Assembly (NCBI GenBank): GCA_000934665.2
Contig: JYFJ02002745.1
Coordinates: 1 to 51,793 of the forward strand
Length of the DNA stretch: 51,793 bases
DNA from: Catajapyx aquilonaris
Lineage: Eukaryota
Direction: 5' to 3'
How positions within the stretch are numbered: the stretch's first letter is position 1; each line of letters starts with the position of its first letter. This document shows positions 3,701 to 48,899 of this stretch, piece after piece. A model generated the notes under the pieces. The model did no database searches. It saw nothing but the letters and a program-made list of their open reading frames with translations, and was not told the DNA's origin. The position numbers and the translations under genes are program-made.

Positions 3701-6700
3701 AAATGAGCCTGTTGAGTGATTGCCAGCTGGATGTTCAACCAGCCTCGCGCTAGGTTTCTGATGTCAAGAACATGTCTCTCTTCCCTAGGAATGCACCTCG
3801 GATGATGCTGCAAGTCTTGCTTCAGGCAGCACCTTTCCCACCCTTCTCCCCGTCTGGCAAGGCACAGTGGCATGCGAGCCACCTCCCCAACACCCTTCCA
3901 ACCACCCACAACAGCCATCTACCTGCCACCGCTACAACTCTACCCCCAACACACCCCCTTCGCAGCTGTGCCAACACAAGCAGAAGATGGTGTCCTCAGA
4001 GCCTGTGATGGAACCCTCCTACAAGCCCTCTCGCCGGAGTGGTCTGAGGGACATACCTGTGGAAGGCAGGGAGGTCAAGCGGCAGCCTCCTGAAGGTGCA
4101 GAAATGAATCTCCTCAAGAGGAGTATGACCTTGCCCATTGACAGAGACCTCGTCAATCTGTATTCGCGGTAAGCTCACTCTTGCTGGATTCTTGATCTGT
4201 TGTGCCAGTCCAGGCCTGTGATACCTTCATCAGCATGCTGTCCACCACATGTACTGATTTGTTGTTGTTGTTTTTTTGCAAAAGTTGCATATATTCTAAA
4301 TGCAAAGCGTATGTTGCAGAAGTAAGTTATGTGCCCACAATGATATAACACCAAAATGCTAGCAATTGAATGTAACACACAAATGGGGTTTTAAAACCAT
4401 TTATTATTTTCAGGCGTGGTTCAGGTTGCTGTGGTCCCCGCAGTCTGGAAAGTATAGGTTCTGACTCAGGTCCATCGGAAATGTTCTTGTCAGACACTAA
4501 TCTGAAGCGCTTCCTACGTGAGAACTCCCTAGACAGCCTCTGCTCAGATGTGAGTTGGGACCTATCAATCCAGGATGAGCTGGGAGAGACCACATTGGCC
4601 TACCTTGAGAGACTGCAGTCTGAGATTGACCGACTGAAGAACAACTGTTACAAAATGGAGGATGATGTCGAGTCCCTGAAATTTTGTGAGGAGGAGGAAG
4701 ATGAGTCAGAGGAGGTCAAGGAGGAGCCAGATCAAGTAGGTGAGATCAAAGAGCCCAAAAAGAAGAAGAAGAAGAAGAAGTCTGTACATCCAGCACTGTC
4801 CAAGAGCACAATAGTGGGAATGTACAAGCTGTCTGCTATCAGTACCAGCTTGTCTGAGTCTGACCTAGAGAATGCCACTGGGCTAGAATGGGATTCTCCA
4901 TTGCATGGTGCTGCATCTCAGGCATCAGCAGCCTGCATGGATACACCGCAGAGCCTGGAATGGGATGATGAAGGGCTCTCGGACTTCCCACCAGAGGAAG
5001 ATCTTCCAAACCCAATGTCTCATGCTGATGTTGGGAAAAGTTCAACTCCCGCCAGCACTGTATTTCAAGGGTGGTGCTCAGAAGAATCAGGATTCATGGA
5101 GGCAATGGAGATATCGTGTACAACAGTAGAGTCACCAACTAGCCTCTCGATATCATCCAGTGAGGCATCGTCATACCCAAGCCCTTGCTCAGTTCCAGAA
5201 ACACCAGACAACAACAATGCACCTCATCTGTATAGTGTCAGCCCAAAGTACAGCATAATTGCCTATTCTGAAAGTGAGTGGCGTGGTAACACACCAAAAG
5301 CACACACAATGCTGCAAGGCTACTGTGAGATCCCCACACGCTTTGGCTTACGCCACCTGCGCCAGATACGTGGTGATAACTACTGTGCACTTCGCGCTGT
5401 GTTATTCCAGATGTTGGCCCTTCCGTCGGCACCCTTGCTCCCGAGTGGTAGTGCCACCTATGAGAAGTTACATGATGCCTTGAAGTCTGGATGCCACTGG
5501 CTTTACAACTGGACATTTGCTAAGCGATTGCCTTATACAGGAGCAAGGGTGTGGGAAGGGATTGAGGCGTGCCTCTCTGAGTGGGACAAGGCGTTGTCAA
5601 CCATGGGGCATGCAGATGGTAAGACAAGCAAGGAGGAGAAGGTGGCTGCATTGTTGAACTTTGGGGAAGAGAGAGACTGCATGTTGATGGAAGCAGTGAA
5701 GTTGCACATGCTGGCAGTGAGCTTGGAAATGCACAATGCCAACATGGGTGGACAGGATACGCCTCTGTTTGCAGTACTGCTGTTTGCAAGGAGAACATCT
5801 GAGACACCCAAGGATTTCATGGGGAATCATCTCAACGACGTTGGTAGTGGAGGGGGACTGGAGCAGGTGGGTGGTGTTCATGTATTCTTATGTCATTGGT
5901 CAAATATGTAAGAGTTGTGAGGGGTGTGGTGGAGAAATGTGATAACCATAATTTTTGTCATTTTTTGACCTAAACACCTGCAACTACGTAAAAGACATGA
6001 CAAACAGTTAGGTACACTCACAAGTTAACGCATCATGCACGAGATGGCCATATGAGCTAGATCAAAATGTGAATTCCCTATGATTTGTTAAGAGAATGCA
6101 AACTTCAATTTGCTCTCCTGAAAAATTACACTTTTGTGGGTTATCACCTTTTTTTACCACAACCCTCAGTTGATGTAGGTAATGTAAACTCACAGTATTA
6201 CTCATACATGTGGATCATTCTTGCCAATTTTAACAAATGGGAGCCTCTTAGAATAACACACAAGACTTTTAAAAATTGCCTTTCATGACATATTTTGAAG
6301 TCACATAATCCAAACCTTGTTCCTGATTCATGCAGGAACATGTTGACCTGCATGAATCAGGCACTTTATCCTAATATCATATGCCGTGGACAACTCAGTT
6401 TCAGGAATGAGGGCAATAAGCGGGATGCACGTGCCATAAGACAAGTCACTTAAACATAGGCACTAGTTTTTATCAACGTATTGGGTGTAATAATAATTAT
6501 CCAAGTAACAGCACCATGAGTGGAGCTGTCCTTTCATTCACACTTCCTGTCGTTTTCCATGCTTGTCAAACTCCAGGATTTGAACAAAGTGAGTCCTCAT
6601 TGCAGGATTTTTGGGCTTGCTATGCGACATGTTTCACGGTATCTTTCCCCTGCATCTTTTGCTACCATGCAATGTGAATATTCAAATGCCAGTGGTTGTG

Positions 6701-10612: not shown

Positions 10613-10809
10613 TTTATTTTAATTTAATTTATTTATACCCCATTGGGGGAATCGGCGCTCAATTAGGGGGGTGGAGTACCACCATTGGATGGGGCCAAGG
10701 ATAGGGAAGGAAGTGGCCTATTATACGGAAACAACCCCGGAATTATCCTGGGAGGACCATTGAAAACCTTGCCGACCCCGGGATTCGAACCCAGGACCTC
10801 CCAACTTGG
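10613..10809 (-). mobile_element. 5'-truncated tRNA-type SINE with 16-bp target-site duplication
   Basis: Direct repeat GTTCATACCGCGATAT at 10597-10612 and 10810-10825. Pol III B-box GGTTCGAATCC on the minus strand (10782-10792). A-rich tail at ~10613-10636. Confidence 0.8.
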
Positions 10810-11019
10810 GTTCATACCGCGATATGAAGGTCACTTAATTACCCTAATGCTGTATGACCCCAATGTTAATGATCTACACCGGAAGAGGAGCGGCTGGGGT
10901 GCGGCCTTAGTCTAAGTTGGGCCTGTTTTTTTCGTCCACTCTTTTTTCGTCTTACTTTTTTTTATATATGGTTTCTGTTAATTTCAGGAGGAACCGACCC
11001 TCCTGAGGACACAAACGAG

Positions 11020-11934
11020 ATGGCTTCCTCCAGACGCGGCCGTCCCCCTCCGGAAGAGTCAGGATGGATCCCCGGATTAGGGGACAACCGACCCCAGCCT
11101 CGTCTTCTAGGCAAATCCATGTTCGGCTATGTACCGGACGCATATTCTAACAAAGGACCAGTCCTTCCGTCCGAAAGGAATTCGGCCGAATCCAGCCGAG
11201 CCACGTCCAGGGTGAGTTTCTTTGTTAAAGTTGGACAACAGATGTCGCCAGTATGTACTGTCCATCTACTGTCCAATTTGTGTACCTGATACGACCTCAT
11301 TTCGGGCATTACGGCAGTGCGTGACCTCAGCCCAATAATGGTCCGGGTGTCATTAACCCTGTACGACACGCATGAAAAGGGATGCAAATGTGAAAGGGGT
11401 CAAGTGGAAATGACCCCCCGAGAGAAAGGGGGCCGAATAAATGAAGGGGGGGGGGGGTGGCAGTTGTGTGTTCATCCCCCCCTTGTTGTGTTTCCTTTCA
11501 CGCTCAACCCCGTTTATTGTTGCGAATCACAACTGTGCGGAATTCGTGCCAAATTATTAATTGGGAAGGTAATGCGTACATAACGGGGTACGGAAAATGC
11601 TCTGAACCTGAAACCCCGTATTTTTACCAACAATTGTTTCTGGGAGTTGCCTTATAAAAATGTAGTGGTACGCCATATTATGATAACAATCTGATTGCTT
11701 TATAATACAGGATACGTCTGCGGTTTCAAGTCCAACCGCATCGGTGAAACGGGCCGTTGACAAGATGACGGAAGAAATGCTGCAGGTACGGCTCGGTTAT
11801 TCTCTCGGTAAATTAAATTTTGCATAAACTCGGTTCTGTTCCAGGTGACTCTGTCTAGTGCCAACGGTATCGTGACAGAGGAAATCCGGGTGCAAACCCT
11901 GGGACAAGATGAGGCCATACCTTTTACAGACAAG
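11020..11934 (+). CDS. CRMP: Candidate alternative long N-terminus of the CRMP/dihydropyrimidinase gene. Exons 11020-11211, 11711-11785, 11845-11934, spliced to 14389
   Basis: Three stop-free, phase-0 exons with canonical sites (AGG|gtgagt, tacag|GAT, CAG|gtacgg, ttccag|GTG, AAG|gtaagt). They encode MASSRRG...SMFGYVPDAYSNK...DTSAVSSP..., resembling recalled motifs of vertebrate long CRMP isoforms. Confidence 0.65.
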
Positions 11935-12654: not shown

Positions 12655-18998
<6,344 letters not shown>

Positions 18999-38000: not shown

Positions 38001-39232
38001 GATGGGTCTAACTTTCGATTGTTGGCAGGTACTCGGACATATTCCGGGATATCCGCCCCAACAAGGGTGCCATACTGAAGGCTTCCGTGGACTACATTCG
38101 CCATCTGAAAAATGACACGGACAAAAAGCGGGTCCTGGAAGTGAAAGTCAGACAACTGGAGAATGAGAAGAGGCAGTGTCTGCTCAGGATACAGGTGAAT
38201 GGCAGCTTATCATATTTGTAGGCCATTGTGTCTGATGTATTGTTCTGACCTTCTGATTTATTGCTTTAGGAGCTGGAAAACCAGGCCCAGAGGCACGGCC
38301 TTCCCCTCAGCAGCTGCACCTGGCAACCCAGCAGTGCTTCCACTATCATCAACTACATCAAGAATGAGTCGCTTTCCAATAGTTTCATTAAGCAGGTAGG
38401 AATCACCAGTTTTGTCCTTTACTGCGGTAGATGCTAGAATACTTTAGAGAGGCAAGTGTAATATGGGGGGGTTTTGTGTGGACCCCCTGCAACAAATGTG
38501 ACCTTGAAGTAGTTTCATCTATGTTCATGATGGAAGCAGCAGTTGCCGGACTATCATTCAACATCAGGTATCCCACTTGCTACACCATTTTGGATGGGAA
38601 ATTTTGCATGAACATTACCCTGTGCATTTGTCTCTATTTAATGGTTGACACCAACCCAAGTTTAAGCACTTGAGTTGGAATGCACTACATTGTCACAATT
38701 GTTTGTAGTGCATTTGAGTGACAAATACAGGAACACTGGAGGACAACAATGTCCTACATATGCTGAGGAGGAATTTAATAAAACACGAAGCTTTAGCGAA
38801 TGAAAATTCATTAAATCAAGTTCGAGTTACAGTTACAGTGAATGTTCCTGTGCAGTAATGTAGTCAGCAGGATAGATAACAAATAGATACAGGAGCCATC
38901 CAACTTACCTGATTACTGCACAGGTGTAACCAATTGAGGCAATGCACTTGGTCATAAAGGTAAATTGAAGGCATTGGGATGCATTGCAACAGCTTTTCCC
39001 CCCCTCATATGTGCAAATCTATCATGTCTAAACATTGCTGTCTCCTTTCCTTTTTATGGTGACCCTTGAAAAGGAGGTGCCGGATGTAGTAACGGAGGCT
39101 GCAACCATGAGTGCTGCCCAGCTGGACGACCTGATGGAAGATGACGGTCATCCAGTTACCGGGGATCCCATGCTCTCATCCCCTACTGGCACCAACGCCG
39201 ATGATGACATGCTGCACGATATGCTGTCGTAA
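24421..39232 (+). CDS. Mitf: MiT/TFE family bHLH-Zip transcription factor (526 aa with exon 1a). Exons 24421-24632, 29719-29992, 32374-32703, 36962-37045, 37105-37258, 37884-37959, 38029-38194, 38270-38395, 39074-39232
   Basis: Motifs ESGVDL...ELKSKP (MITF-A-like start), RTNFKQQL (Rag-binding helix), VQTRLENPTKYHV, SSASCP (14-3-3 site), KDRQKKDNHNQIERRRR, NKGAILKASVDYIR, ELENQAQRHGLP and DDLMEDD..GDPMLSS. Phases are consistent and the total is 1581 nt. Confidence 0.95.
25184..25239 (+). repeat. (AAT)n microsatellite
   Basis: About 18 perfect units. Confidence 0.95.
27313..27764 (+). CDS. Mitf: Mitf alternative first coding exon 1b (start 27313 or 27424)
   Basis: Long stop-free frame (MANSLQEQVSEFQEIIDKITKM...GIDQDLEMILDMDPSIID...GLPPRIG) ending GG|gtatgg in phase 2, matching the common exon at 29719. 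CRE TGACGTCA at 27233-27240 lies just upstream. Confidence 0.7.
27774..27949. repeat. Long imperfect inverted repeat (~78-bp arms) immediately after the Mitf exon 1b donor
   Basis: GCTTTGCCGTCCCAATGAGAAACACC...GCATGCATGCCCTGCACTAATC pairs with GATTAGAGCAGGTCATGCATGC...GGTGTTTCTCATTGGGACGGCATAGC. Confidence 0.9.
28540..28649 (+). CDS. Mitf: Mitf candidate alternative first coding exon 1c
   Basis: Good Kozak context (aggATGG), MAAGYLDMDGYWREYGWYGGRGYQPVPDWDRFEPEF, ending AG|gtttgt in phase 2 like exons 1a and 1b. Confidence 0.5.
32051..32092 (+). repeat. (TGAT)n microsatellite
   Basis: About 10 units. Confidence 0.95.
32881..33187. mobile_element. MITE (PIF/Harbinger-like ends) in a Mitf intron
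   Basis: Perfect 18-bp terminal inverted repeat CAAGGGGGTAGTCACTTC / GAAGTGACTACCCCCTTG, with internal reiterated GGCTCTC motifs. Target-site duplication unclear. Confidence 0.75.
36498..36587 (+). CDS. Mitf: Candidate internal first coding exon for a short Mitf isoform
   Basis: Acceptor ttttatcag at 36444, ATGs at 36498 and 36510, (MVGE)MPVYSVTKKLVQVNRIGVSPARKRHK, donor AAG|gtaaac in phase 0 matching the exon at 36962. Confidence 0.5.
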
Positions 39233-40009: not shown

Positions 40010-43000
40010 CTACCGCTTCGGTTGGGGACCGCTGCTTAAAATTTGCTGCAGCCTCTTCTCAAATGCATCCATGTCAGCACGGTCTTGCTGAATGCTATCA
40101 CGAAGCTCCTGGATTCCATCCTCAATCAATTCGTCTGGCTGCCACTTGCGCTTCATTGGCAACGTTGGTGGCTTCTTGCTGGGAGATGGCACTTTTGCAC
40201 ATGGAGCAGCAGATGTTGAAGCCTGTTCACCTTCTGTAGAAATGTTAACGATCTTGCCTTTTTCAATGATGTCTTTAAGCCAATGCTCGGTCTGACATAG
40301 CTCCTCCTTGACTTTGGATGCCTCGTTGCGAAACAAATCATATTCAGGAAGGATCTTTACCAAAGTAGACTGAACTGGTGGTGGCGTTATTGGTTTAGGT
40401 GAGATCATTTCTGGACTCGGATTTTCAGGAATGATCACTTCACGTGGCCACCTGACCTGGAAACCTTCGGTTGCATCAACTGGGCATGCCACCATTTCGT
40501 CTGGAAGAGTTGCCAGTTGATAGTACATGCATGCCTGTATCAAGTGCAGCCAGGGCATGGCATGGAAGTCACAGGGTTTCTCTGTGAGGCTAGCCACCTT
40601 TGAAAGAAGCAGGGCCGTGCTGGCCGATTCACGTTTTAGTCCCCGGCAGTATTGCAAGATGTCCATGGAGTCCTGATACAGTGGGAGTTGCAGGGACACA
40701 ATGGATTTGGTCAGGTGATGGAGGTAATCAAGGCTGTTCCAGTTTCCAGGAGGATCCAACATTTTGTTGCCACGCAGAAGCTCTGGAGCTGGCCACGAGA
40801 GCTCCAGAAGGGATGGGTCAGCCCAGATTCTGGCCAGGTGGACAACAGCTGAGTTGTACACACTGATAAGACTATTTGGATGCTGAAACAACAAGGAACA
40901 TTACAGATTCATTACTTACATGTCAAGAGTGCAACTTTCAACTCCTATCCAAGTACTTACTCTCCTCTGCTGTCTATATTGCCATTGCATGGAAAAATCC
41001 TGGAAGAATGGTTCCAGTACCATGCTGGTCAGGTTATCCTCAGCCCAGTCCTTCAGTGGCAGCACACGCACATTTGGAGGTGATGGCCTGAACCTCGCCA
41101 GCCATTGCAGCAGTGATTTCAACTGAAAAGTGCACAAGTTGACACTTTCATTACTTCGGTCGAATTTTCGTCCCACTGCTACTTACTGCTAACTTGGCAG
41201 TACCATTGCCAACACTGGAACTGCTAAGGTAGCAGCAACTAGCGGTGGGACGAATATTCCACCCTTAGAAACAAAATTCTGACATCTTTTATGCAACTGT
41301 CCCTCATTCATAATTCAGATTTAGCTTGTTGAGACCTTATTAAGACGGACAACGGACAAAGCACTATAGAATCTTTATTTATTTTGGAACTCACCGCCAA
41401 ACTGGCTGCAGGCTCTTGGAACTTCAGCTCCACCTCTTCCACTTGTGACACTAGCTCAGCCATGGAATCATGAAGGGAAAATACACATCCACCAAGAGTC
41501 ATTACTGCAACTGGAATTGATGGTATTGATGGTAGCACGTGCAGGACATCCTCCATCAGGTCCATTCTCCCATCATTTATGAACACAATCCCATGTGCAC
41601 CCTGTACATCATGCTTGATTGGGCTCTTGGTACAGCTCCGAATGCATACCCACAACTTTCCATCGTGGTAAACTGACACCTCTCGGTCCTCTCCAGAATG
41701 CAACTTCGCCTGTTTGACACAAGATAAATTTAAGATAGAATAGGCAACATTTATTGAGAGGAAGGAAAAACTGATAACCCACCTGCACCCAACGATGGTA
41801 CTTGCTTCCAACCACTACCAACACTTTCCATTCAAGCCGCTGCCTTCGATAACAGTCTGGACCAAATTCATTTGCCACTGTGGCTATAATGTCCAATGGT
41901 TTCTTCTCCATGGCACTAGACAGTTTGGCCATGCACAAAGCAGCTTTACCCAATAACTGGACTTTCTCTCGCTGTGAGGCAACCTCCTCCAAATTGGTTG
42001 CAGGAATGTCTGATCCATCGTGCAGTGGGGTGAAGAAGCTGGCAAGGTACACCGACTCCTCCCTGCCCTTCCTCTTAGCCTTCAGCCTTCGGCGCCATTG
42101 GATGAACAGCTTCCGCATCTTAAACTGATGTGCTTGCCGATTCAGTCTTGAAACATTCTCTTCATGCTCCCCAATTGCTTCCTGAAGTGTTTCACTGGCC
42201 ACTTCCTTTAACTCGGATGCAATGGTCTCAAAGAGTATGGTCCGAGCTGCAGATAAAGCCACCCTTTCTTGTGCCACGACTAAGGCAGCAACACCCGCCG
42301 CCATTTCAGCTGTGACATCTTTCAGTAATGACTCGTGAATCTGCATGAAAGGAACAACGACACAACATGAGAATAAGGTTTGCCAGCTAGTGGCTAACTT
42401 ATGCGAATTGTACCGACTGTGAGTATAGTATTAAACAGTCAATCCTGCACTTACTTCAACACACACTTTTGCAATGGTGATTTCCTTCTCCCTCTTCTTC
42501 CTTTTTTCTTCTTCTAAGGCCAACCACTTCTGTACTTCCTCAGCCTTGGCCTCCGCCATTGCATCTTCGCAAACCTCCCTGCACATCTGATTGCTCACTT
42601 CTGTTATTATCTCCTGTAGCACCTGGTATCCTTCCCGTTCAACCATTACTGCCATGCACAAACGTTTGGACTCCCTGTCTGTATACTCATAGCTTATCTC
42701 CTCCACTATGGCCTGACAGCAACGATCCCTACAGGCTTCCTCCTCCATCTGGCGACGCTGATGCTCCAGTGGATCAGGTTGTAGAGGGACAGGCAGAGGT
42801 GGAGGATGCTCTGGTGCAATGTCTGGTTGTGCAAGGGAAGGATGAAGGGGGAAAGGAGGTATTTGAGGTGGTGTTGACGAACCTCGAGGTGAACTATCAC
42901 TGGGCACTGATGACGTCAAGAAGCCATGCTCATTGAAGCTGTTGTGAGGTACATGGGTGAGGTACGGGTTTGGAGGCAAGGGACTTCCATTTATCACCTG

Positions 43001-46000
43001 AAAAAGAAAGTGGCCCTTTCATCCAGAGACAAGACTTCACATTAAGGCTAGAGAAGAAACATTTCAGGTACACGATGTGACATGCAACTAGATTGTGTGA
43101 CGGTGAGTTTTCAAGTGAACATAAACCATACCTCTCCAATGGAACAAGTCCGCTTGCTTTCAATGAGCTTGCTGGCCCTAAATATAGTTGGAGCAGACTC
43201 AGGACTGTGGAAGCTTCTTTTGTCAAGTATCAGTGATTGACTGGCATCATCTGTCACCAGACCATGCTGGGCACAAAAGTGGGAGGCTTCCATGGGGCCT
43301 TCAAATCCCAGCAATTCAATCAGTTCAGCCATGGGGAAATTTATGCTCTTTCCTGGTGGGCAATAGGCACGCAGGATAATGCGTAGGGCATGAGTTCGCA
43401 CCTGAAGTAATAAAGCATGGGAATAATTTGAAATGTTGTGGTACACTCATCACTCGTTTTATATACTAAAGCAATAATGAAATGAAATATTTTTATACAG
43501 TATATCTGTCAGCAGAACTTTACAAATAATGTCACAATGCAGTTCATATCAAATTTAAAAATGAAACTGTGGGCCTCTCTGATATTTACCACATACCTGA
43601 ACAAAGTATCTTTGCAGAATGCAGGCCTCTAGGTAGGTTGCTTTCCGCACCAAATTGAAAAACTGAACATAATTGTGCGAGTCCAGAGCCAGCAGGCAGC
43701 TCACTGCAAACCTGACACAAGATGCACTGTGCACCTCCTCACGCAGCTGTGTAACTTGCCTCAGGCTGTCCCCTTCATTCAGGTTGAGCAACACATCATA
43801 CGCTCGAAATTCTGCCTCACTATGGCAATGAATCCCTTTCTCATCCAGATCACTGTATAGCTCCTTCAGGGTTTGCAGGCACTTGGTGAGATTCTCATTG
43901 TTTATCTTCTGGTCAAATACTGACATGTCCTCCTCACAGAGCCGTTCTGCACAGTGGATGTGGAACCGGGCACACTTTTCTACCAACGCCACTGACTCCG
44001 GACTGCAGAGTTGCTGCTGGGTCACATCTTTGCGTATCCCCCTGGTGCGATCCCACACAAAGTGGTACCAGTCACCTAGATTTTCATCCAATGCTTCACT
44101 GCGGTCCATCACTGAGTTGACGAAGTAGTCCATGGTCATGGTAAGAACAGGAGTAGGGCGAAGTTCATGTGGGAGTGGCTCTTCCTGATCAGCAGAACTT
44201 CGAGAATACTGCTTGATAGCAGCTCGATGGTCAATGATATATTCCTTTCTGTCTCCTGTTTCATAGGATGCCAGCTGGCGCTGTTCTTGCCGCATGTAAC
44301 GCTCCTTCTCTGGGCACATGTCTGGACATGTACCCACATTCTGCTTGTCCAAGGACAGGTCAGAACGCTTGGACTGGAGGCCTGTGGAAACAAATGACAT
44401 TAATCCCATGATCTGACAGTGAGAGTAAATTACTGGCAAAAATCAATATGTCCAGAAGGAGTTTTCAATTCAAATTTTTTGCCGAGTTCAACAAGTTATT
44501 ACAAATAATTTTTGAAGGGCATCCTGAAAAGGCATACTGCTTCACATGAATTCAGCATTCCTAATCTTTCTTAAGCATGAAGTATCAGACTTCCCCATTA
44601 CAATCTTCAAAATTATAAGTAGATTGCTTGACAAAAACATTTCTAATTCCTTATTATGTGGATAGCAGAATTACATTGCAAGCATATTGACAAATAATAA
44701 AATAAAAGCCAGTCAGCCACAGTTACCCATTATGTCAAATCATGTTAATGGACTTCACTAAATCACTATTTATCCCAAGTATTACCTAGCCTCAGAAGAC
44801 GATCTCTTGCGTCCAAAACTTTGAATCTCTCTCCAGCAGTGAATGCTGCTTGCTTGACAATAGACTTGAGCTCTGGCACCATTGTTGCGCCAGAGAGCGG
44901 GACATCTTCCTTCTCTGCCTTCCCCTTTGATGCTGACTTATGGCTTCGTGATGGTGACATTGCCTTTCTGAAACATTAACCATATGTTGCATTTTGTCTC
45001 AGAAGGATCAAGTAAGTGACTTTCAATTCTCTGTTATGACCTGGAAGATACTTGATATTCAGGCCACTGCAGCCGAACCAGAGGCCTTGAAATACACTTG
45101 CAGAATATGATTTCAAAAACTCTGGCTTTTACATGATACAGGCCATTGGTAGTTCTGGTCCTGTACAGAGCAATAGTAAATAAACGCATGTTTGCCCTTA
45201 CTTTGTTTCTGGCTCAACTAATCCACCCCCCATGGCATTAAGTTCTTCAGTGATGTCTGGGTCCTCATGCAGTTTCTTCTTTCGCCACATCTGCTTCTGG
45301 ATCTGCCTTGTCTCGTCCAACTGGCGCATTTTATCTTCCATCTTCTTCAGCCTGTCCTGTTTCGCAGTTTCGGCTGAGCTAGTTTTTAATGACTTTGGAG
45401 ATGCTGACTTTGGAGACAATGAGCTGTAAAAGATTTTCATAGTGGAGCCCTTGAAGAAACCACCTACACCATGTTTTTTGGCAGCAGCAGCAGCATCCTG
45501 AAAATATATTTAAATGACTTGTATAAAGGTGTATCATAATTTTGGGACAAGGCAAGATGACTTGTGAAAGGTCAAGTAGCAGGTTGGGGATATAGGTAGA
45601 GGGGAGCAAATTTTGACACAGCAAATAGGATAAGTTAACAAAATCCTGACTAATTTCCCCAACTGTGCAATGCAGAGCACCCATCTACACTATATCCAAA
45701 TGTTTGTCAGGTCTTGAACTTGGATCTACCCCTTGACACCCGCGAAAGTGTCTGCTCTCTCAAAAGGAGCATTGTTATCACCATGACCAGAAAGCCAGCG
45801 ACCTTCTGCAATTTGACAAATTCCCTGCCCTGACACCCACCTTTAGCAAGAAATTTAACGGACAGATTATTGCAAAATTGGTTGGCAAAATGAACACAAT
45901 CATCACAAAAATTTGCAGATATTCTACCTGCCTAAAATTGGGATATAATAGGATAAAAATGCCGCGACATGACCCATAAATTCAAGGTTCTCAACCACCA

Positions 46001-47256
46001 TGCCATAAATTAGATACAACTTACATGATTATCATAGTGAACATTAGCAACTCTCTTCTTGTTGTTCAAGCTGATGCGAACCACCTTTCCAAATTGGCTG
46101 AAATGGATTTCCAGCTTTTTCTTTCCAATTCCCTCTGGAACGTCCTGGCAGCAGATTGACTTGATCTGCTCCAACTGTCCTGTAGGAATAACTTTCTTTT
46201 GCTTTCCTGTTGGCACGTCCACAGAGCTACTTCCACTTGACATTCGCCGCCTGGCAACGCTGCTCTTCTTTAGCATTGATACAGCACGACCAAACACACC
46301 TCCAGTTTTTGCAACTGTTTTCTTGGGATGCAGCGAAAACGTCTTGGTATCATCTTTGCTTTCCCTGCTAGGTGGCTTAGTCGCACCTTTGGTCTCCATT
46401 GCCACATCTTGGGATACACTTACGGCTCCCTCATCTACAATTAAATATTTACTGTCATTTTTTTTGGAGCATAAAATAAAATAAGTAAAAGTTCTTATCA
46501 ACTACGGTAAGAAGTAATGTCCATGTTATTTTTAATGTTTAACATTGAAAGCTTGCTAAGATATCAAACACTTAAAACAGGCTGACACAAAATGTGTAAG
46601 CTACTTTCTGAATATAGCTAAAAATTAATTACTAATAGTAATTATAAAATAATCAAGGACAGACCCTCACCTGGCATATTATCAGTAGGTCGTGTTTGCT
46701 TCAACCTTGGATCCCTTGGATTCGGTGGAGGTGTAAAAGCCCCTGACACTGATTTTGTGAGTGGGAAGGTTGGCTGTGAAGCTGACCTCATCCCAAACAC
46801 TTGCCGTGAGGTTGACATACCAAATATAGATGATGCTGACCCACCAGATGATTCAGTCACTTGTGGTGTTTTAAACTGAAACGCTTGAGTGGTTGTCCCT
46901 TGTCCAAAGGTATATCCTGGTCCTGATTTCGTACCAAACCCCATTTTCCCACGACCCTTTCCAACAACAAACGGTGTGACACCAAATGCAGGTGAGGAAT
47001 ATTGTCCTCCAAAGATCCCAAATGCTGACTTTGATGGTTGGCCCGTAATGTTTTGGAAAGTTCCTTTCTGAGTGGCTTCTTGGGCAGAAACATGGCCAAA
47101 GAGGACAGCAGGTGGTTCTGGTTGAGACACTGAACTGAACATGGGCCTGTGAGTCAATGCGTGAGGGTCTGATGGGGGTACATTGGGTGGTGTATACTCG
47201 GGAGGTGGTTTTGTCTCTGGTCTGGGTCCAAGTGGGTTCGTTTGTTCTCCGAACAT
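40010..47256 (-). CDS. MCM3AP: GANP/MCM3AP (Sac3/xmas-2) TREX-2 mRNA export scaffold (~1659 aa). Exons 47256-46671, 46434-46025, 45497-45202, 44967-44786, 44381-43597, 43401-43132, 42997-42455, 42340-41783, 41709-41395, 41122-40961, 40882-40010
   Basis: FG-rich nucleoporin-like N-terminus, RRM (HFSQFGKVVRI), Sac3 domain GTCPDMCPEKERY...YSRSSADQEEPLPHELRP...WDRTRGIRKDVTQQ...EAEFRAY, and CID-like helical region (KLFIQWRRRL). Exon phases are consistent and the total is 4980 nt. Confidence 0.93.
41162..41259. repeat. Imperfect hairpin (~44-bp stem, 10-nt loop) in a GANP intron
   Basis: GAATTTTCGTCCCACTGCTACTTACTGCTAACTTGGCAGTACCA / TGGAACTGCTAAGGTAGCAGCAACTAGCGGTGGGACGAATATTC. Confidence 0.8.
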
Positions 47257-47581
47257 GGCTGAATAGATTCAGGCACCTGAAAAATATTTAAAAAAAGCAT
47301 AAAATATAGCACTTCAAACCAAATATGCAAGATTTGCCATTCACATGTTTAAATATTCACCACCAGATTTACTACTAATACAATTGGTGTCATGAGATAC
47401 ATGCGGTATAAGTGGAAAAAAAATATCTGATGGACCTATTTTGCTATTGTACTAGCACAGTCACAAAAAAAAACCTTAAATGAATACTAGTAAAATACAG
47501 TACAGCATAGATTATCCAAATACCAATCAACCGAAACATCAGTTAACCTAAAGCGTTCAAGTCGGTAAATTCAAATTTGCA

Positions 47582-48412: not shown

Positions 48413-48531
48413 TTAATGTATGTAGTGTACTGTATACTACTTTATGTAAGGTACGTATTTTTAAGACGTGTGATACATAATATACAGGTTTGTGTTTAAT
48501 ATCACTATTTCTTTCTTTCATATTGCTCCTA

Positions 48532-48899
48532 CGGGGGAGGCACGGTGGCCGAGATGGTAACGTCTCGGCTTGCTATGCGAAAGGTCCCGGGTTCAAATCC
48601 CCACCCGGGAACAAACCTTTCGCTTGCGTCAATGGGTCGTGACCCGCGCCTAAGGAGGCGTCTTGGCAACCTGACCTCCTGGGGGACTGCACCTGGCCCA
48701 CCGCTGGACAATGCACCTGCACAAGTGTCCCTTCCCCAAACCCCCCAACCCTTACCCCATTTCCTAGTAATCCTTGCACCGGAGTTTGAAGATAAAAACC
48801 ATTAGAAAACTGTATGGTGGTCTGCCACCCCCCTATAACGGCCTAGGGTTGTATCACGGGGTAAATAAAATAAAAATAAATAAATAAATAAAATAAAAA
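48532..48899 (+). mobile_element. Full-length tRNA-derived SINE with 12-bp target-site duplication
   Basis: TSD ATATTGCTCCTA at 48520-48531 and 48900-48911. A-box TGGCCGAGATGG (48546), B-box GGTTCAAATCC (48590), and an (AAAT)n-type tail at 48863-48899. Confidence 0.9.

What the first reader, a model, noticed from the sequence alone, without database searches (positions are those of the whole stretch)
11020..11934. Hidden three-exon long N-terminus of CRMP resembling vertebrate long CRMP isoforms
Seen: upstream of the ordinary first exon are three stop-free, phase-0 exons encoding 119 aa: MASSRRGRPPPEESGWIPGLGDNRPQPRLLGKSMFGYVPDAYSNKGPVLPSERNSAESSRATSR|DTSAVSSPTASVKRAVDKMTEEMLQ|VTLSSANGIVTEEIRVQTLGQDEAIPFTDK. 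They can join [11 protein letters not shown] at 14389. Recalled knowledge: long isoforms of vertebrate CRMP1/CRMP4 begin MADRRRAW or MASGRRGW, contain GGMFxxVEGAYENK and SAVSSP, have a similar length and splice at about the same point. Three collinear motif matches suggest the long/short alternative-promoter design predates the vertebrate-protostome split. The ORF track shows only the first exon.
Basis: partly seen in the sequence, partly recalled or inferred. Interest (0 to 1): 0.85.

Follow-up and report, generated by a model that had tools for sequence, protein, structure and literature searches.

The report
Long N-terminal isoform exons of CRMP
Three small exons upstream of the usual first exon of an arthropod CRMP/dihydropyrimidinase gene encode a long N-terminal extension that many crustaceans and non-holometabolous insects also have, and whose conserved core probably matches the long CRMP isoforms of vertebrates.

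Summary
Exons 11020-11211, 11711-11785 and 11845-11934 are stop-free and phase 0. They have canonical splice sites and can join the common CRMP exon at 14389.

The exons are conserved, not chance.
- Exon 1 finds 31 true relatives among 1.84 billion proteins, with E down to 1e-15.
- A profile of the relatives finds 31 long proteins. All 31 are CRMP/dihydropyrimidinase isoforms of 644-800 aa, and the 29 named ones come from 17 pancrustacean genera.
- In 32 of 32 examined, the motif sits N-terminal to the amidohydrolase core.

The isoform is therefore already in automated RefSeq models elsewhere. Here it is a new member of that kind.

No RNA run was listed for this organism, so its own junctions remain unconfirmed.

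Vertebrate homology could be tested only with two peptides printed in papers, CRMP2A 21-33 and an LCRMP-1 peptide.
- Both land best on the conserved block, exactly adjacent to each other.
- The joint score is 26.1 bits, reached by 0 of 100,000 shuffles.
- Five control peptides score -11.2 to +5.8 bits.

I judge deep homology of a roughly 27-residue core probable, at about 0.65. The SAVSSP match carries little information.

The parts
11020..11211 (+). Long-isoform coding exon L1 (64 aa). It carries the conserved block WIPGLGDNRPQPRLLGKSMFGYVPDAYSNKGPVLPSER. A possible acceptor TTTCAG|G at 10986/10987 suggests an untranslated exon further upstream (unverified).
   Evidence: sequence, splice sites, first ATG; conservation, E to 1e-15 and 2e-20.
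11711..11785 (+). Long-isoform exon L2 (25 aa, DTSAVSSP...EEMLQ), a Ser-rich linker that is lineage-restricted.
   Evidence: matches only Periplaneta P0179 and Ephemera P0127 (E about 0.07); homologous exon with the same phase and equivalent boundaries about 2.8 kb after exon 1 in loci L002-L006.
11845..11934 (+). Long-isoform exon L3 (30 aa, ...IVTEEIRVQTLGQDEAIPFTDK), ending in phase 0.
   Evidence: 16 of 35 ortholog N-termini match; top of 2735 ORFs, E 0.032.
12655..12708 (+). Ordinary (short-isoform) first coding exon [18 protein letters not shown], phase-0 donor. The long form skips it.
   Evidence: No in-frame internal acceptor seen (by eye).
14389..14483 (+). First common exon ([17 protein letters not shown]...EEGKI-), shared acceptor for both first-exon choices. 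The next exon starts at 14572.
14572..18995 (+). Rest of the CRMP/dihydropyrimidinase body (approximate exon blocks from tblastn). It includes a mutually exclusive exon pair 15851-16090 / 16290-16547 and two alternative C-terminal exons, 17974-18027 and 18924-18995.
   Evidence: tblastn with P0002 and P0016; ortholog P0002 vs PDB: human DPYS 722 bits, CRMP2 662 bits.

Best explanation
The window holds a pancrustacean (probably hexapod) CRMP/dihydropyrimidinase gene with two alternative 5' ends.

The distal start lies around 10990-11020. It gives three small phase-0 exons (119 aa) that skip the proximal first exon (12655-12708) and splice to the common exon at 14389. The product is a long isoform.

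The extension is mostly polar and probably disordered: 76% of residues are A, G, P, S, E, K, Q, R, D, T or N. It carries one strongly conserved linear block of about 40 residues (W-I-P-G-L-G-x-N-[KR]-P-x-P-R-x-L-G-x-S-[FM]-F-G-Y-V-P-D-A-[FY]-S-x-K-x-P-x-x-P-S-E-[RK]) and a second weaker one (VTEE...EA.P) just before the junction.

Shown:
- the exons, their phases and splice signals;
- conservation of the block;
- its exclusive association with CRMP/DHP cores in other species, including intron-less transcript-like contigs.

Inferred:
- that this organism splices them the same way from its own promoter;
- that the block is a protein-binding motif that changes the localisation or regulation of the CRMP tetramer. 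This is by analogy with vertebrate L-CRMPs and with UNC-33L, whose isoform-specific N-terminus binds UNC-119;
- that the core of the block (window residues 19-45) is homologous to residues of about 22-48 of vertebrate long CRMPs. My odds for this last step are about 0.65.

The Cdk5/Pin1 serine of CRMP2A (S27) is not conserved; it aligns with Arg24 of the window protein. The two prolines and the arginine after it are conserved.
For: -: exons, phases and canonical sites.
- 31 true hits to exon 1.
- named carriers are Ischnura XP_046407336.1 and Schistocerca isoform X1, both joined to the core. Ephemera, Timema, Gryllus bimaculatus, Petrolisthes and Daphnia sinensis carry it as fragments.
- 31 of 31 profile hits carry amidohydrolase Pfam domains. 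29 are named, from 17 pancrustacean genera.
- in 32 of 32 proteins the block precedes the core. Most join ...(A/L)(E/L)P(W/I)xx|SAQNRLLIK, as the window would.
- P0202 (664 aa on a 3630-nt contig) and P0204 (692 aa on a 2478-nt contig) can only be spliced transcripts.
- exons 2 and 3 are matched in order.
- an independent genome (L002-L006) has the same exon 1 / exon 2 layout and phases.
- the two paper-printed vertebrate peptides place adjacently on the block. They score 16.4 and 9.7 bits, 26.1 bits jointly, reached by 0 of 100,000 shuffled pairs and 0 of 100,000 random 27-mers. Controls score -11.2 to +5.8 bits, outside the core.
- Papers, passages read: PMC7325199 (L-CRMP1, 2 and 4 have extensions of about 100 aa that are 35-54% identical); PMC10086033 (exon 1a/1b); PMC7159925 (the UNC-33L N-terminus binds UNC-119).
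Against: - There are no RNA data for this organism, so its junctions and promoter are inferred.
- Exon 2 alone is not significant (rank 7, E 30).
- Several annotations model the extension as a separate small protein (Gryllus bimaculatus, Ephemera, Timema, Petrolisthes, Daphnia sinensis).
- phmmer with exon 1 found no vertebrate, chelicerate or lophotrochozoan protein at E<=1e-3. The profile search found none at E<=10 among its word-sharing candidates.
- With the pancrustacean-only profile, the LCRMP-1 peptide scores 4.6 bits, no higher than a Tau control at 5.4 bits, although its own shuffles reach it in only 406 of 100,000.
- The joint test assumes the two peptides are adjacent in one vertebrate protein. 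They come from two paralogues. Their adjacency is recalled, and is only consistent with the tryptic K|Y cut.
- The exon number differs (three here, one in vertebrates).
- S27 is not conserved.
Confidence: 0.8

Rival explanations
1. The long isoform is real in pancrustaceans, but its N-terminus arose independently of the vertebrate L-CRMP extension. The 27-residue resemblance would then be convergence of a short linear motif, or chance.
For: - No vertebrate or other non-arthropod named protein was reached by sequence search.
- Only two short peptides could be compared.
- The single-peptide score of LCRMP-1 is modest with the pancrustacean-only profile.
- Exon structure differs.
- The S27 site is absent.
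Against: - The joint collinear placement scores 26.1 bits, reached by 0 of 100,000 in two nulls.
- Scores rise when more divergent family members are added.
- The block starts at residue 19 here and at residue 22 in CRMP2A (numbering from PMC13288452, Table S1).
- It sits in the same gene family, in the same alternative 5' exon position, joined at the same point of the core.
Confidence: 0.25
2. The three exons form a separate small gene, or a transcript that retains the intron after exon L3 and ends ...FTDKVSYNFP*. They are not joined to CRMP in this organism.
For: - Five public annotations list the extension as a stand-alone hypothetical protein.
- Read-through after 11934 meets a stop after 6 codons.
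- No RNA data exist here.
Against: - All 31 long proteins found with the profile are CRMP/DHP fusions.
- Two transcript-like contigs join both parts.
- The phase-0 donor at 11934 fits the phase-0 acceptor at 14389.
- The stand-alone models are short or partial predictions.
Confidence: 0.05
3. The exons are chance open frames with chance splice-like signals.
For: None beyond the weak stand-alone statistics of exon 2.
Against: - Exon 1 reaches E 1e-15 in 1.84e9 proteins.
- Exon 3 is the top ORF of 2735.
- Order and phases are conserved in another genome.
Confidence: 0.01

Closest known systems
Predicted long 'dihydropyrimidinase / collapsin response mediator protein' isoforms of Pancrustacea in RefSeq/GenBank, e.g. 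Periplaneta americana isoform X5 (P0179), Ischnura elegans X6 (XP_046407336.1), Penaeus, Homarus, Scylla, Eriocheir, Macrobrachium, Daphnia pulicaria X4
   Same: - Same N-terminal block (50-71% identity to exon 1).
- Same VTEE...EA.P tail.
- Same direct join to SAQNRLL(I/L)K.
- Periplaneta also has the exon-2 segment ETSAVSSP.
   Different: - The linker length and sequence vary.
- Crustaceans lack the exon-2 segment.
- Daphnia pulicaria X4 passes through the ...PVRKVPIHLQ coding part before SAQNRLL.
- These are automated models. I found no paper describing them.
Vertebrate long CRMP isoforms (LCRMP-1/CRMP1A, CRMP2A, CRMP4b/TUC-4b)
   Same: - An alternative 5' exon gives an N-terminal extension of about 100 aa on an otherwise identical protein (PMC7325199, PMC10086033).
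- A core of about 27 residues matches the arthropod block collinearly.
- The block starts about 20 residues from the N-terminus in both.
   Different: - Vertebrates use one exon (1a), this window three.
- The Cdk5/Pin1/FKBP12 serine S27 of CRMP2A aligns with Arg or Lys in arthropods.
- The rest of the extension shows no tested similarity.
- Only two printed peptides were compared, not whole sequences.
C. elegans UNC-33L
   Same: A protostome CRMP with long, medium and short isoforms that differ at the N-terminus. The long-specific N-terminus has its own binding function, UNC-119 to ankyrin (PMC7159925, passages read).

Membership tests
CRMP / dihydropyrimidinase (cyclic amidohydrolase) gene | Amidohydrolase core collinear with known CRMP/DHP proteins | tested here: met
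   window exons 14383-18995 align to residues 7-580 of Zootermopsis P0002. Amidohydro_1 and Amidohydro_3 in orthologs P0133 and P0148. P0002 vs human DPYS 722 bits, CRMP2 662 bits.
CRMP / dihydropyrimidinase (cyclic amidohydrolase) gene | HxH metal-binding motif (enzyme-type core) | tested here: met
   the window encodes [15 protein letters not shown]. Activity itself was not tested.
Pancrustacean long CRMP isoform | N-terminal block WIPGLG...FFGYVPDAF...PSE[RK] | tested here: met
   Nearly invariant columns I17 P18 G19 L20 G21 R28 F35 G36 Y37 D40 P50 E52 are all present in the window.
Pancrustacean long CRMP isoform | Extension joined directly to the SAQNRLL exon, skipping the [13 protein letters not shown] exon | not testable with these tools
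   Orthologs do so and the phases fit. No RNA run was listed for this organism.
Pancrustacean long CRMP isoform | Second conserved segment (VTEE...EA.P) just before the junction | tested here: met
   16 of 35 orthologs. E 0.032, rank 1 of 2735 ORFs.
Vertebrate L-CRMP N-terminal extension | Extension of about 100 aa from an alternative first exon upstream of the short-form first exon | tested here: inconclusive
   The extension is 119 aa and lies upstream of the short-form exon, but it is split into three exons. Vertebrates use a single exon 1a (PMC10086033).
Vertebrate L-CRMP N-terminal extension | Conserved core sequence (CRMP2A 22-33 plus the LCRMP-1 tryptic peptide) | tested here: met
   16.4 bits (shuffles reach it 58 of 50,000; random k-mers 1 of 50,000) and 9.7 bits (18 of 50,000; 72 of 50,000). 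The placements are adjacent. Joint score 26.1 bits, 0 of 100,000. Controls. Limited to two printed peptides.
Vertebrate L-CRMP N-terminal extension | Cdk5 site Ser27-Pro28 (CRMP2A) | tested here: not met
   S27 aligns with Arg24 of the window protein (consensus Lys). Pro28, Pro30 and Arg31 align with Pro25, Pro27 and Arg28.
Vertebrate L-CRMP N-terminal extension | Whole-extension profile-profile similarity | not testable with these tools
   No vertebrate long-isoform sequence could be obtained as a stored protein. The PDB holds none (0 hits; all chains 586 aa or shorter).

The most novel reading that the evidence does not exclude
The N-terminal extension of long CRMP isoforms contains an ancient bilaterian module. 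It is a block of about 27-40 residues ([LI]G-x3-P-x-P-R-x5-[MF]F-x2-V-x2-A[FY]-x2-K) that was already encoded by a distal alternative first exon of the single ancestral CRMP/DHP gene before protostomes and deuterostomes split.

It would have gone unnoticed because no Drosophila or other holometabolan protein appears among its named carriers. In that case the vertebrate Cdk5/Pin1 switch (S27) is a later addition to an older binding motif.
Probability: 0.6. Interest if true: 0.6.

Novelty: new member of a known kind. Interest (0 to 1): 0.5.

Why it matters
Long CRMP isoforms have distinct roles in vertebrates. CRMP2A is controlled by Cdk5, Pin1 and FKBP12, CRMP4b acts with RhoA, and LCRMP-1 acts in filopodia and spermiation (PMC7325199, PMC10086033, bioRxiv 10.1101/2025.01.13.632804). 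No domain or motif has been defined in their N-termini.

A block conserved from crustaceans and insects to vertebrates would define the functional core of that extension. It would separate ancient residues (P-x-P-R, MF, V, A-Y/F, K) from vertebrate additions (S27). It would also make the long isoform testable in tractable arthropods such as crickets, Daphnia and decapods.

For this window, the practical result is a corrected gene model with a second promoter and a long isoform.

Tried and rejected
- a word-indexed search with exon 1 among longer proteins found nothing. The exhaustive search then succeeded.
- no RNA holder was listed for window 10990-11934, so read laying could not be used.
- no whole genome is held for this window.
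- no earlier findings.
- the ESM Atlas gave no usable hit.
- no PDB chain matches the block profile at E<=10.
- there is no Pfam family for the extension.
- the bacterial-type promoter scan is irrelevant here and found nothing.
- the AlphaFold2 model of P0178 with a 23-sequence alignment had mean pLDDT 41, and even the known core was poorly modelled. Nothing is drawn from it.
- Balastik et al. 2015 (PMC4662601) is not held.
- no Rfam family in the window.
- Literature searches and passages of PMC7325199, PMC10153444 and PMC8131560 gave no description of an arthropod long CRMP isoform or of its homology to vertebrate L-CRMPs. Subscription journals are not covered, and bioRxiv supplements are closed.
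- L016 was rejected as a false positive. I read it as a bacterial regulator-like ORF that carries only FGY[VI]P[DN]A.
- An in-frame acceptor inside the ordinary first exon (the Daphnia-like route) was looked for by eye and not found.

Full report
**1. Observation.**
Searches confirm three stop-free, phase-0 exons.
- 11020-11211: 64 codons, donor AGG|GTGAGT. Its ATG is the first in frame after the stop at 10870.
- 11711-11785: 25 codons, ATACAG|G ... CAG|GTACGG.
- 11845-11934: 30 codons, TTCCAG|G ... AAG|GTAAGT.

The acceptor TTACAG|AGC at 14389 opens [11 protein letters not shown] in phase 0. The introns are 499, 59 and 2454 nt.

The ordinary first exon lies between these exons and 14389. Its CDS is 12655-12708, [18 protein letters not shown], with donor CAG|GTCAGT. 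It is the counterpart of insect [24 protein letters not shown].

The CRMP body runs from 14389 to about 18995. Its first exons are 14389-14483 and 14572-14756. In one search I first used 14569 by mistake; 14572 is the start that gives ...EEGKIKQVGRN.

**2. The exons are conserved coding sequence.**
- A word-indexed search with exon 1 found nothing.
- The exhaustive phmmer search found 34 proteins at E<=1e-3, 10 of them at E<=1e-10.
- Reading the 34, 31 share one block, W-I-P-G-L-G-x-N-K/R-P-x-P-R-x-L-G-x-S-F-F-G-Y-V-P-D-A-F-S-x-K-T-P-x-x-P-S-E-R/K. The other three are repeat proteins that I set aside.
- In alignment A1 (26 sequences), F35 is invariant. I17, P18, G19, L20, G21, R28, G36, Y37, D40, P50 and E52 are at least 90% conserved.

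**3. What the block belongs to.**
- Look-ups name Ischnura elegans 'dihydropyrimidinase isoform X6' (XP_046407336.1) and Schistocerca 'dihydropyrimidinase-like isoform X1'. In both the block is fused to the amidohydrolase core.
- Short stand-alone 'hypothetical proteins' carry it in Ephemera danica, Timema, Gryllus bimaculatus, Petrolisthes and Daphnia sinensis.
- The A1 profile, searched among longer proteins, gave 31 proteins at E<=10 out of 8000 scored candidates. All 31 carry Amidohydro Pfam domains.
- 29 of them are named. They come from 17 genera: Gryllus, Anabrus, Periplaneta, Schistocerca, Penaeus, Homarus, Scylla, Portunus, Eriocheir, Panulirus, Palaemon, Macrobrachium, Procambarus, Oratosquilla, Daphnia, Artemia and Amphibalanus.
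- In 32 of 32 sequences inspected the block is N-terminal to the core. In most, the extension ends ...AEPW/ALPI.. and joins SAQNRLLIK directly.
- P0202 (664 aa on a 3630-nt contig) and P0204 (692 aa on a 2478-nt contig) leave no room for introns. They are therefore transcripts joining both parts.
- No holometabolous insect, chelicerate or non-arthropod appears among the named hits. The searches cannot prove absence.

**4. Exons 2 and 3.**
- In tblastn of 35 ortholog N-termini against the window, exon 1 was hit by 35 of 35.
- Exon 3 was hit by 16 of 35 (E 0.046-0.78), always within 11836-11931.
- Exon 2 was hit by 2 of 35: Periplaneta RETSAVSSPVTSSSR and Ephemera QEASLVSSP...EEMLKV.
- A profile of 24 non-redundant ortholog tails (of 34) that excludes the exon-1 block ranks the exon-3 ORF first of 2735 six-frame ORFs (E 0.032). 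The ordinary first-exon ORF comes second, through the Daphnia sequence. The exon-2 ORF is seventh (E 30).
- Metagenome loci L002-L006 are 66-67% identical in exon 1 and 89% identical to Periplaneta. They hold a homologous exon 2 about 2.8 kb downstream. Both boundaries are in phase 0 and at the equivalent alignment positions...GCA|GTAAGT; TGTAG|GAA......AAG|GTGAGA.
- The three-exon layout is therefore conserved in at least one other genome.

**5. Vertebrate comparison.**
No vertebrate long isoform could be brought in as a stored sequence.

Two papers print pieces of it.
- PMC8303486 (passages) gives the LCRMP-1 proteotypic peptide YGGMFAAVEGAYENK for human Q14194-2 and mouse.
- PMC13288452 (supplement, Table S1) gives CRMP2A 21-33 as CNLGSGSPKPRQK, with pS27.

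I scored these against a position-specific matrix of the block.

| Profile | Peptide | Best placement | Score | Shuffles reaching it | Random window-ORF k-mers reaching it |
|---|---|---|---|---|---|
| 46 non-redundant pancrustacean-type sequences | CRMP2A 22-33 | on GLGENKPKPRVL | 13.3 bits | 379 of 100,000 | 10 of 100,000 |
| same | LCRMP-1 peptide | on GTSFFGYVPDAFSEK | 4.6 bits | 406 of 100,000 | 1191 of 100,000 |
| 54 sequences, adding eight divergent metagenome ones | CRMP2A 22-33 | same position | 16.4 bits | 58 of 50,000 | 1 of 50,000 |
| same | LCRMP-1 peptide | same position | 9.7 bits | 18 of 50,000 | 72 of 50,000 |

- In both profiles the two best placements are exactly adjacent: column 5 plus 12 residues gives column 17.
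- The best joint adjacent score is 26.1 bits. It is reached by 0 of 100,000 shuffled pairs (mean -19.9, sd 5.5) and by 0 of 100,000 contiguous 27-mers of window ORFs.
- Five unrelated peptides printed in the same papers score -11.2 to +5.8 bits, all in the low-information tail.
- In the window itself the match is L, G, P, P, R (5 of 12) and M, F, V, A, Y, N, K (7 of 15).
- The block begins at residue 19 here and at residue 22 in CRMP2A.

Caveats:
- The two peptides come from two paralogues.
- Their adjacency in one protein is my recollection. It is only consistent with the tryptic K|Y cut.
- The LCRMP-1 peptide alone is weak against the narrower profile.
- I knew beforehand where I expected them to fall.

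**6.
- SAVSSP lies in the lineage-restricted, Ser-rich exon 2. A look-alike (SSAVSSPYRSGSR) occurs at an unrelated spot about 3 kb upstream in L001-L006. I give it no weight.
- An N-terminal M-[AS]-S...RR start recurs in 16 of 36 non-redundant family N-termini and in L009. It is a real, if loose, family feature.

**7. Mechanism.**
Shown:
- Two alternative 5' ends share the acceptor at 14389.
- The distal one adds 119 residues, 76% of them polar or small.
- The extension holds one strongly conserved and one weakly conserved segment.

Inferred:
- The distal end has its own promoter. There is a T-rich tract and a possible acceptor TTTCAG|G at 10986/10987, so an upstream non-coding exon is possible.
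- The extension is disordered and the block is a docking motif.

Precedents, from passages read:
- L-CRMP N-termini confer distal axonal localisation, RhoA interaction and migration effects (PMC7325199).
- CRMP2A S27 switches between FKBP12 and Pin1 (bioRxiv 10.1101/2025.01.13.632804).

S27 aligns with Arg24 here (consensus Lys), so that phospho-switch is not part of the shared core. The P-x-P-R next to it is. The AlphaFold attempt was uninformative (mean pLDDT 41).

**8. Verdict.**
The exons are genuine long-isoform exons, at about 0.9. The isoform is not new as a kind, because automated RefSeq models show it in many pancrustaceans. I found no paper on it.

Homology of its core with vertebrate L-CRMPs is probable, at about 0.65, but it rests on two short printed peptides. 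The idea that a long/short design exists in protostomes is already implied by UNC-33 L/M/S. What would be new is sequence homology of the long-specific part.

Noticed in passing
window 15851-16090 and 16290-16547 (+): Two adjacent exons both align to the same residues (about 246-325) of insect CRMP (56% and 48% identity to P0002). This looks like a mutually exclusive exon pair. From memory, the Drosophila CRMP gene uses such a pair to make enzyme-type and CRMP-type isoforms.
   Followed up: partly
window 17974-18027 and 18924-18995 (+): Two alternative C-terminal coding pieces, both ending ...PPGG.SSG.W. They match the C-termini of Orchesella P0016 and Zootermopsis P0002 respectively.
   Followed up: no
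L007-L011, L013-L015 (metagenome loci): A divergent lineage in which the block is split by a phase-1 intron inside the Arg codon (...PRPR|ELGCTMFGYIPDAF...). Within 1-2.4 kb follows a CRMP-like core exon that lacks the HxH motif (GGVDPSVHF in L008). The organism is unknown.
   Followed up: partly
L012:1725-2042: An ORF MAENSQ...FFGGVGSPQPKPRTKSYGMFGYVPDAFSEKT... carries a Ser-Pro and an MF, as in the printed vertebrate peptides. The contig ends before any core exon. It is a possible intermediate form from an unknown organism.
   Followed up: no
P0200 (Daphnia pulicaria isoform X4): The long N-terminus is joined through ...TPVRKVPIHLQ, the coding part of the ordinary first exon, before SAQNRLL. 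The other 31 sequences inspected do not do this.
   Followed up: no
P0148, P0154 (Schistocerca 'dihydropyrimidinase-like' isoform X1 and a fragment): A paralogue-like form with a truncated block (WIPGLGENRPQPRKLDMSFFGYVPDDGSVDIF) and a divergent core start (SEDRILIRNG).
   Followed up: no
window 4376-5908 (+); 40013-47268 (-); 38012-38218 (+): Neighbouring genes: a Peptidase_C101 ORF upstream (E 2e-53), and a SAC3/GANP-MCM3AP gene with an RRM on the minus strand downstream (E 5.5e-93). A bHLH-zipper-like ORF at about 38.0-38.2 kb had no Pfam hit at E<=0.01.
   Followed up: partly
window 10700-10830 and 48500-48800: Translations such as PGFEPRTSQLG and MRKVPGSNPHPG suggest tRNA-derived SINE-like repeats. 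One of them lies about 200 nt upstream of exon L1. Rfam gave no hit.
   Followed up: no
window 11441-11480; 13302; 34656: A G-run followed by a C-run inside intron 1, and single N bases at 13302 and 34656.
   Followed up: no
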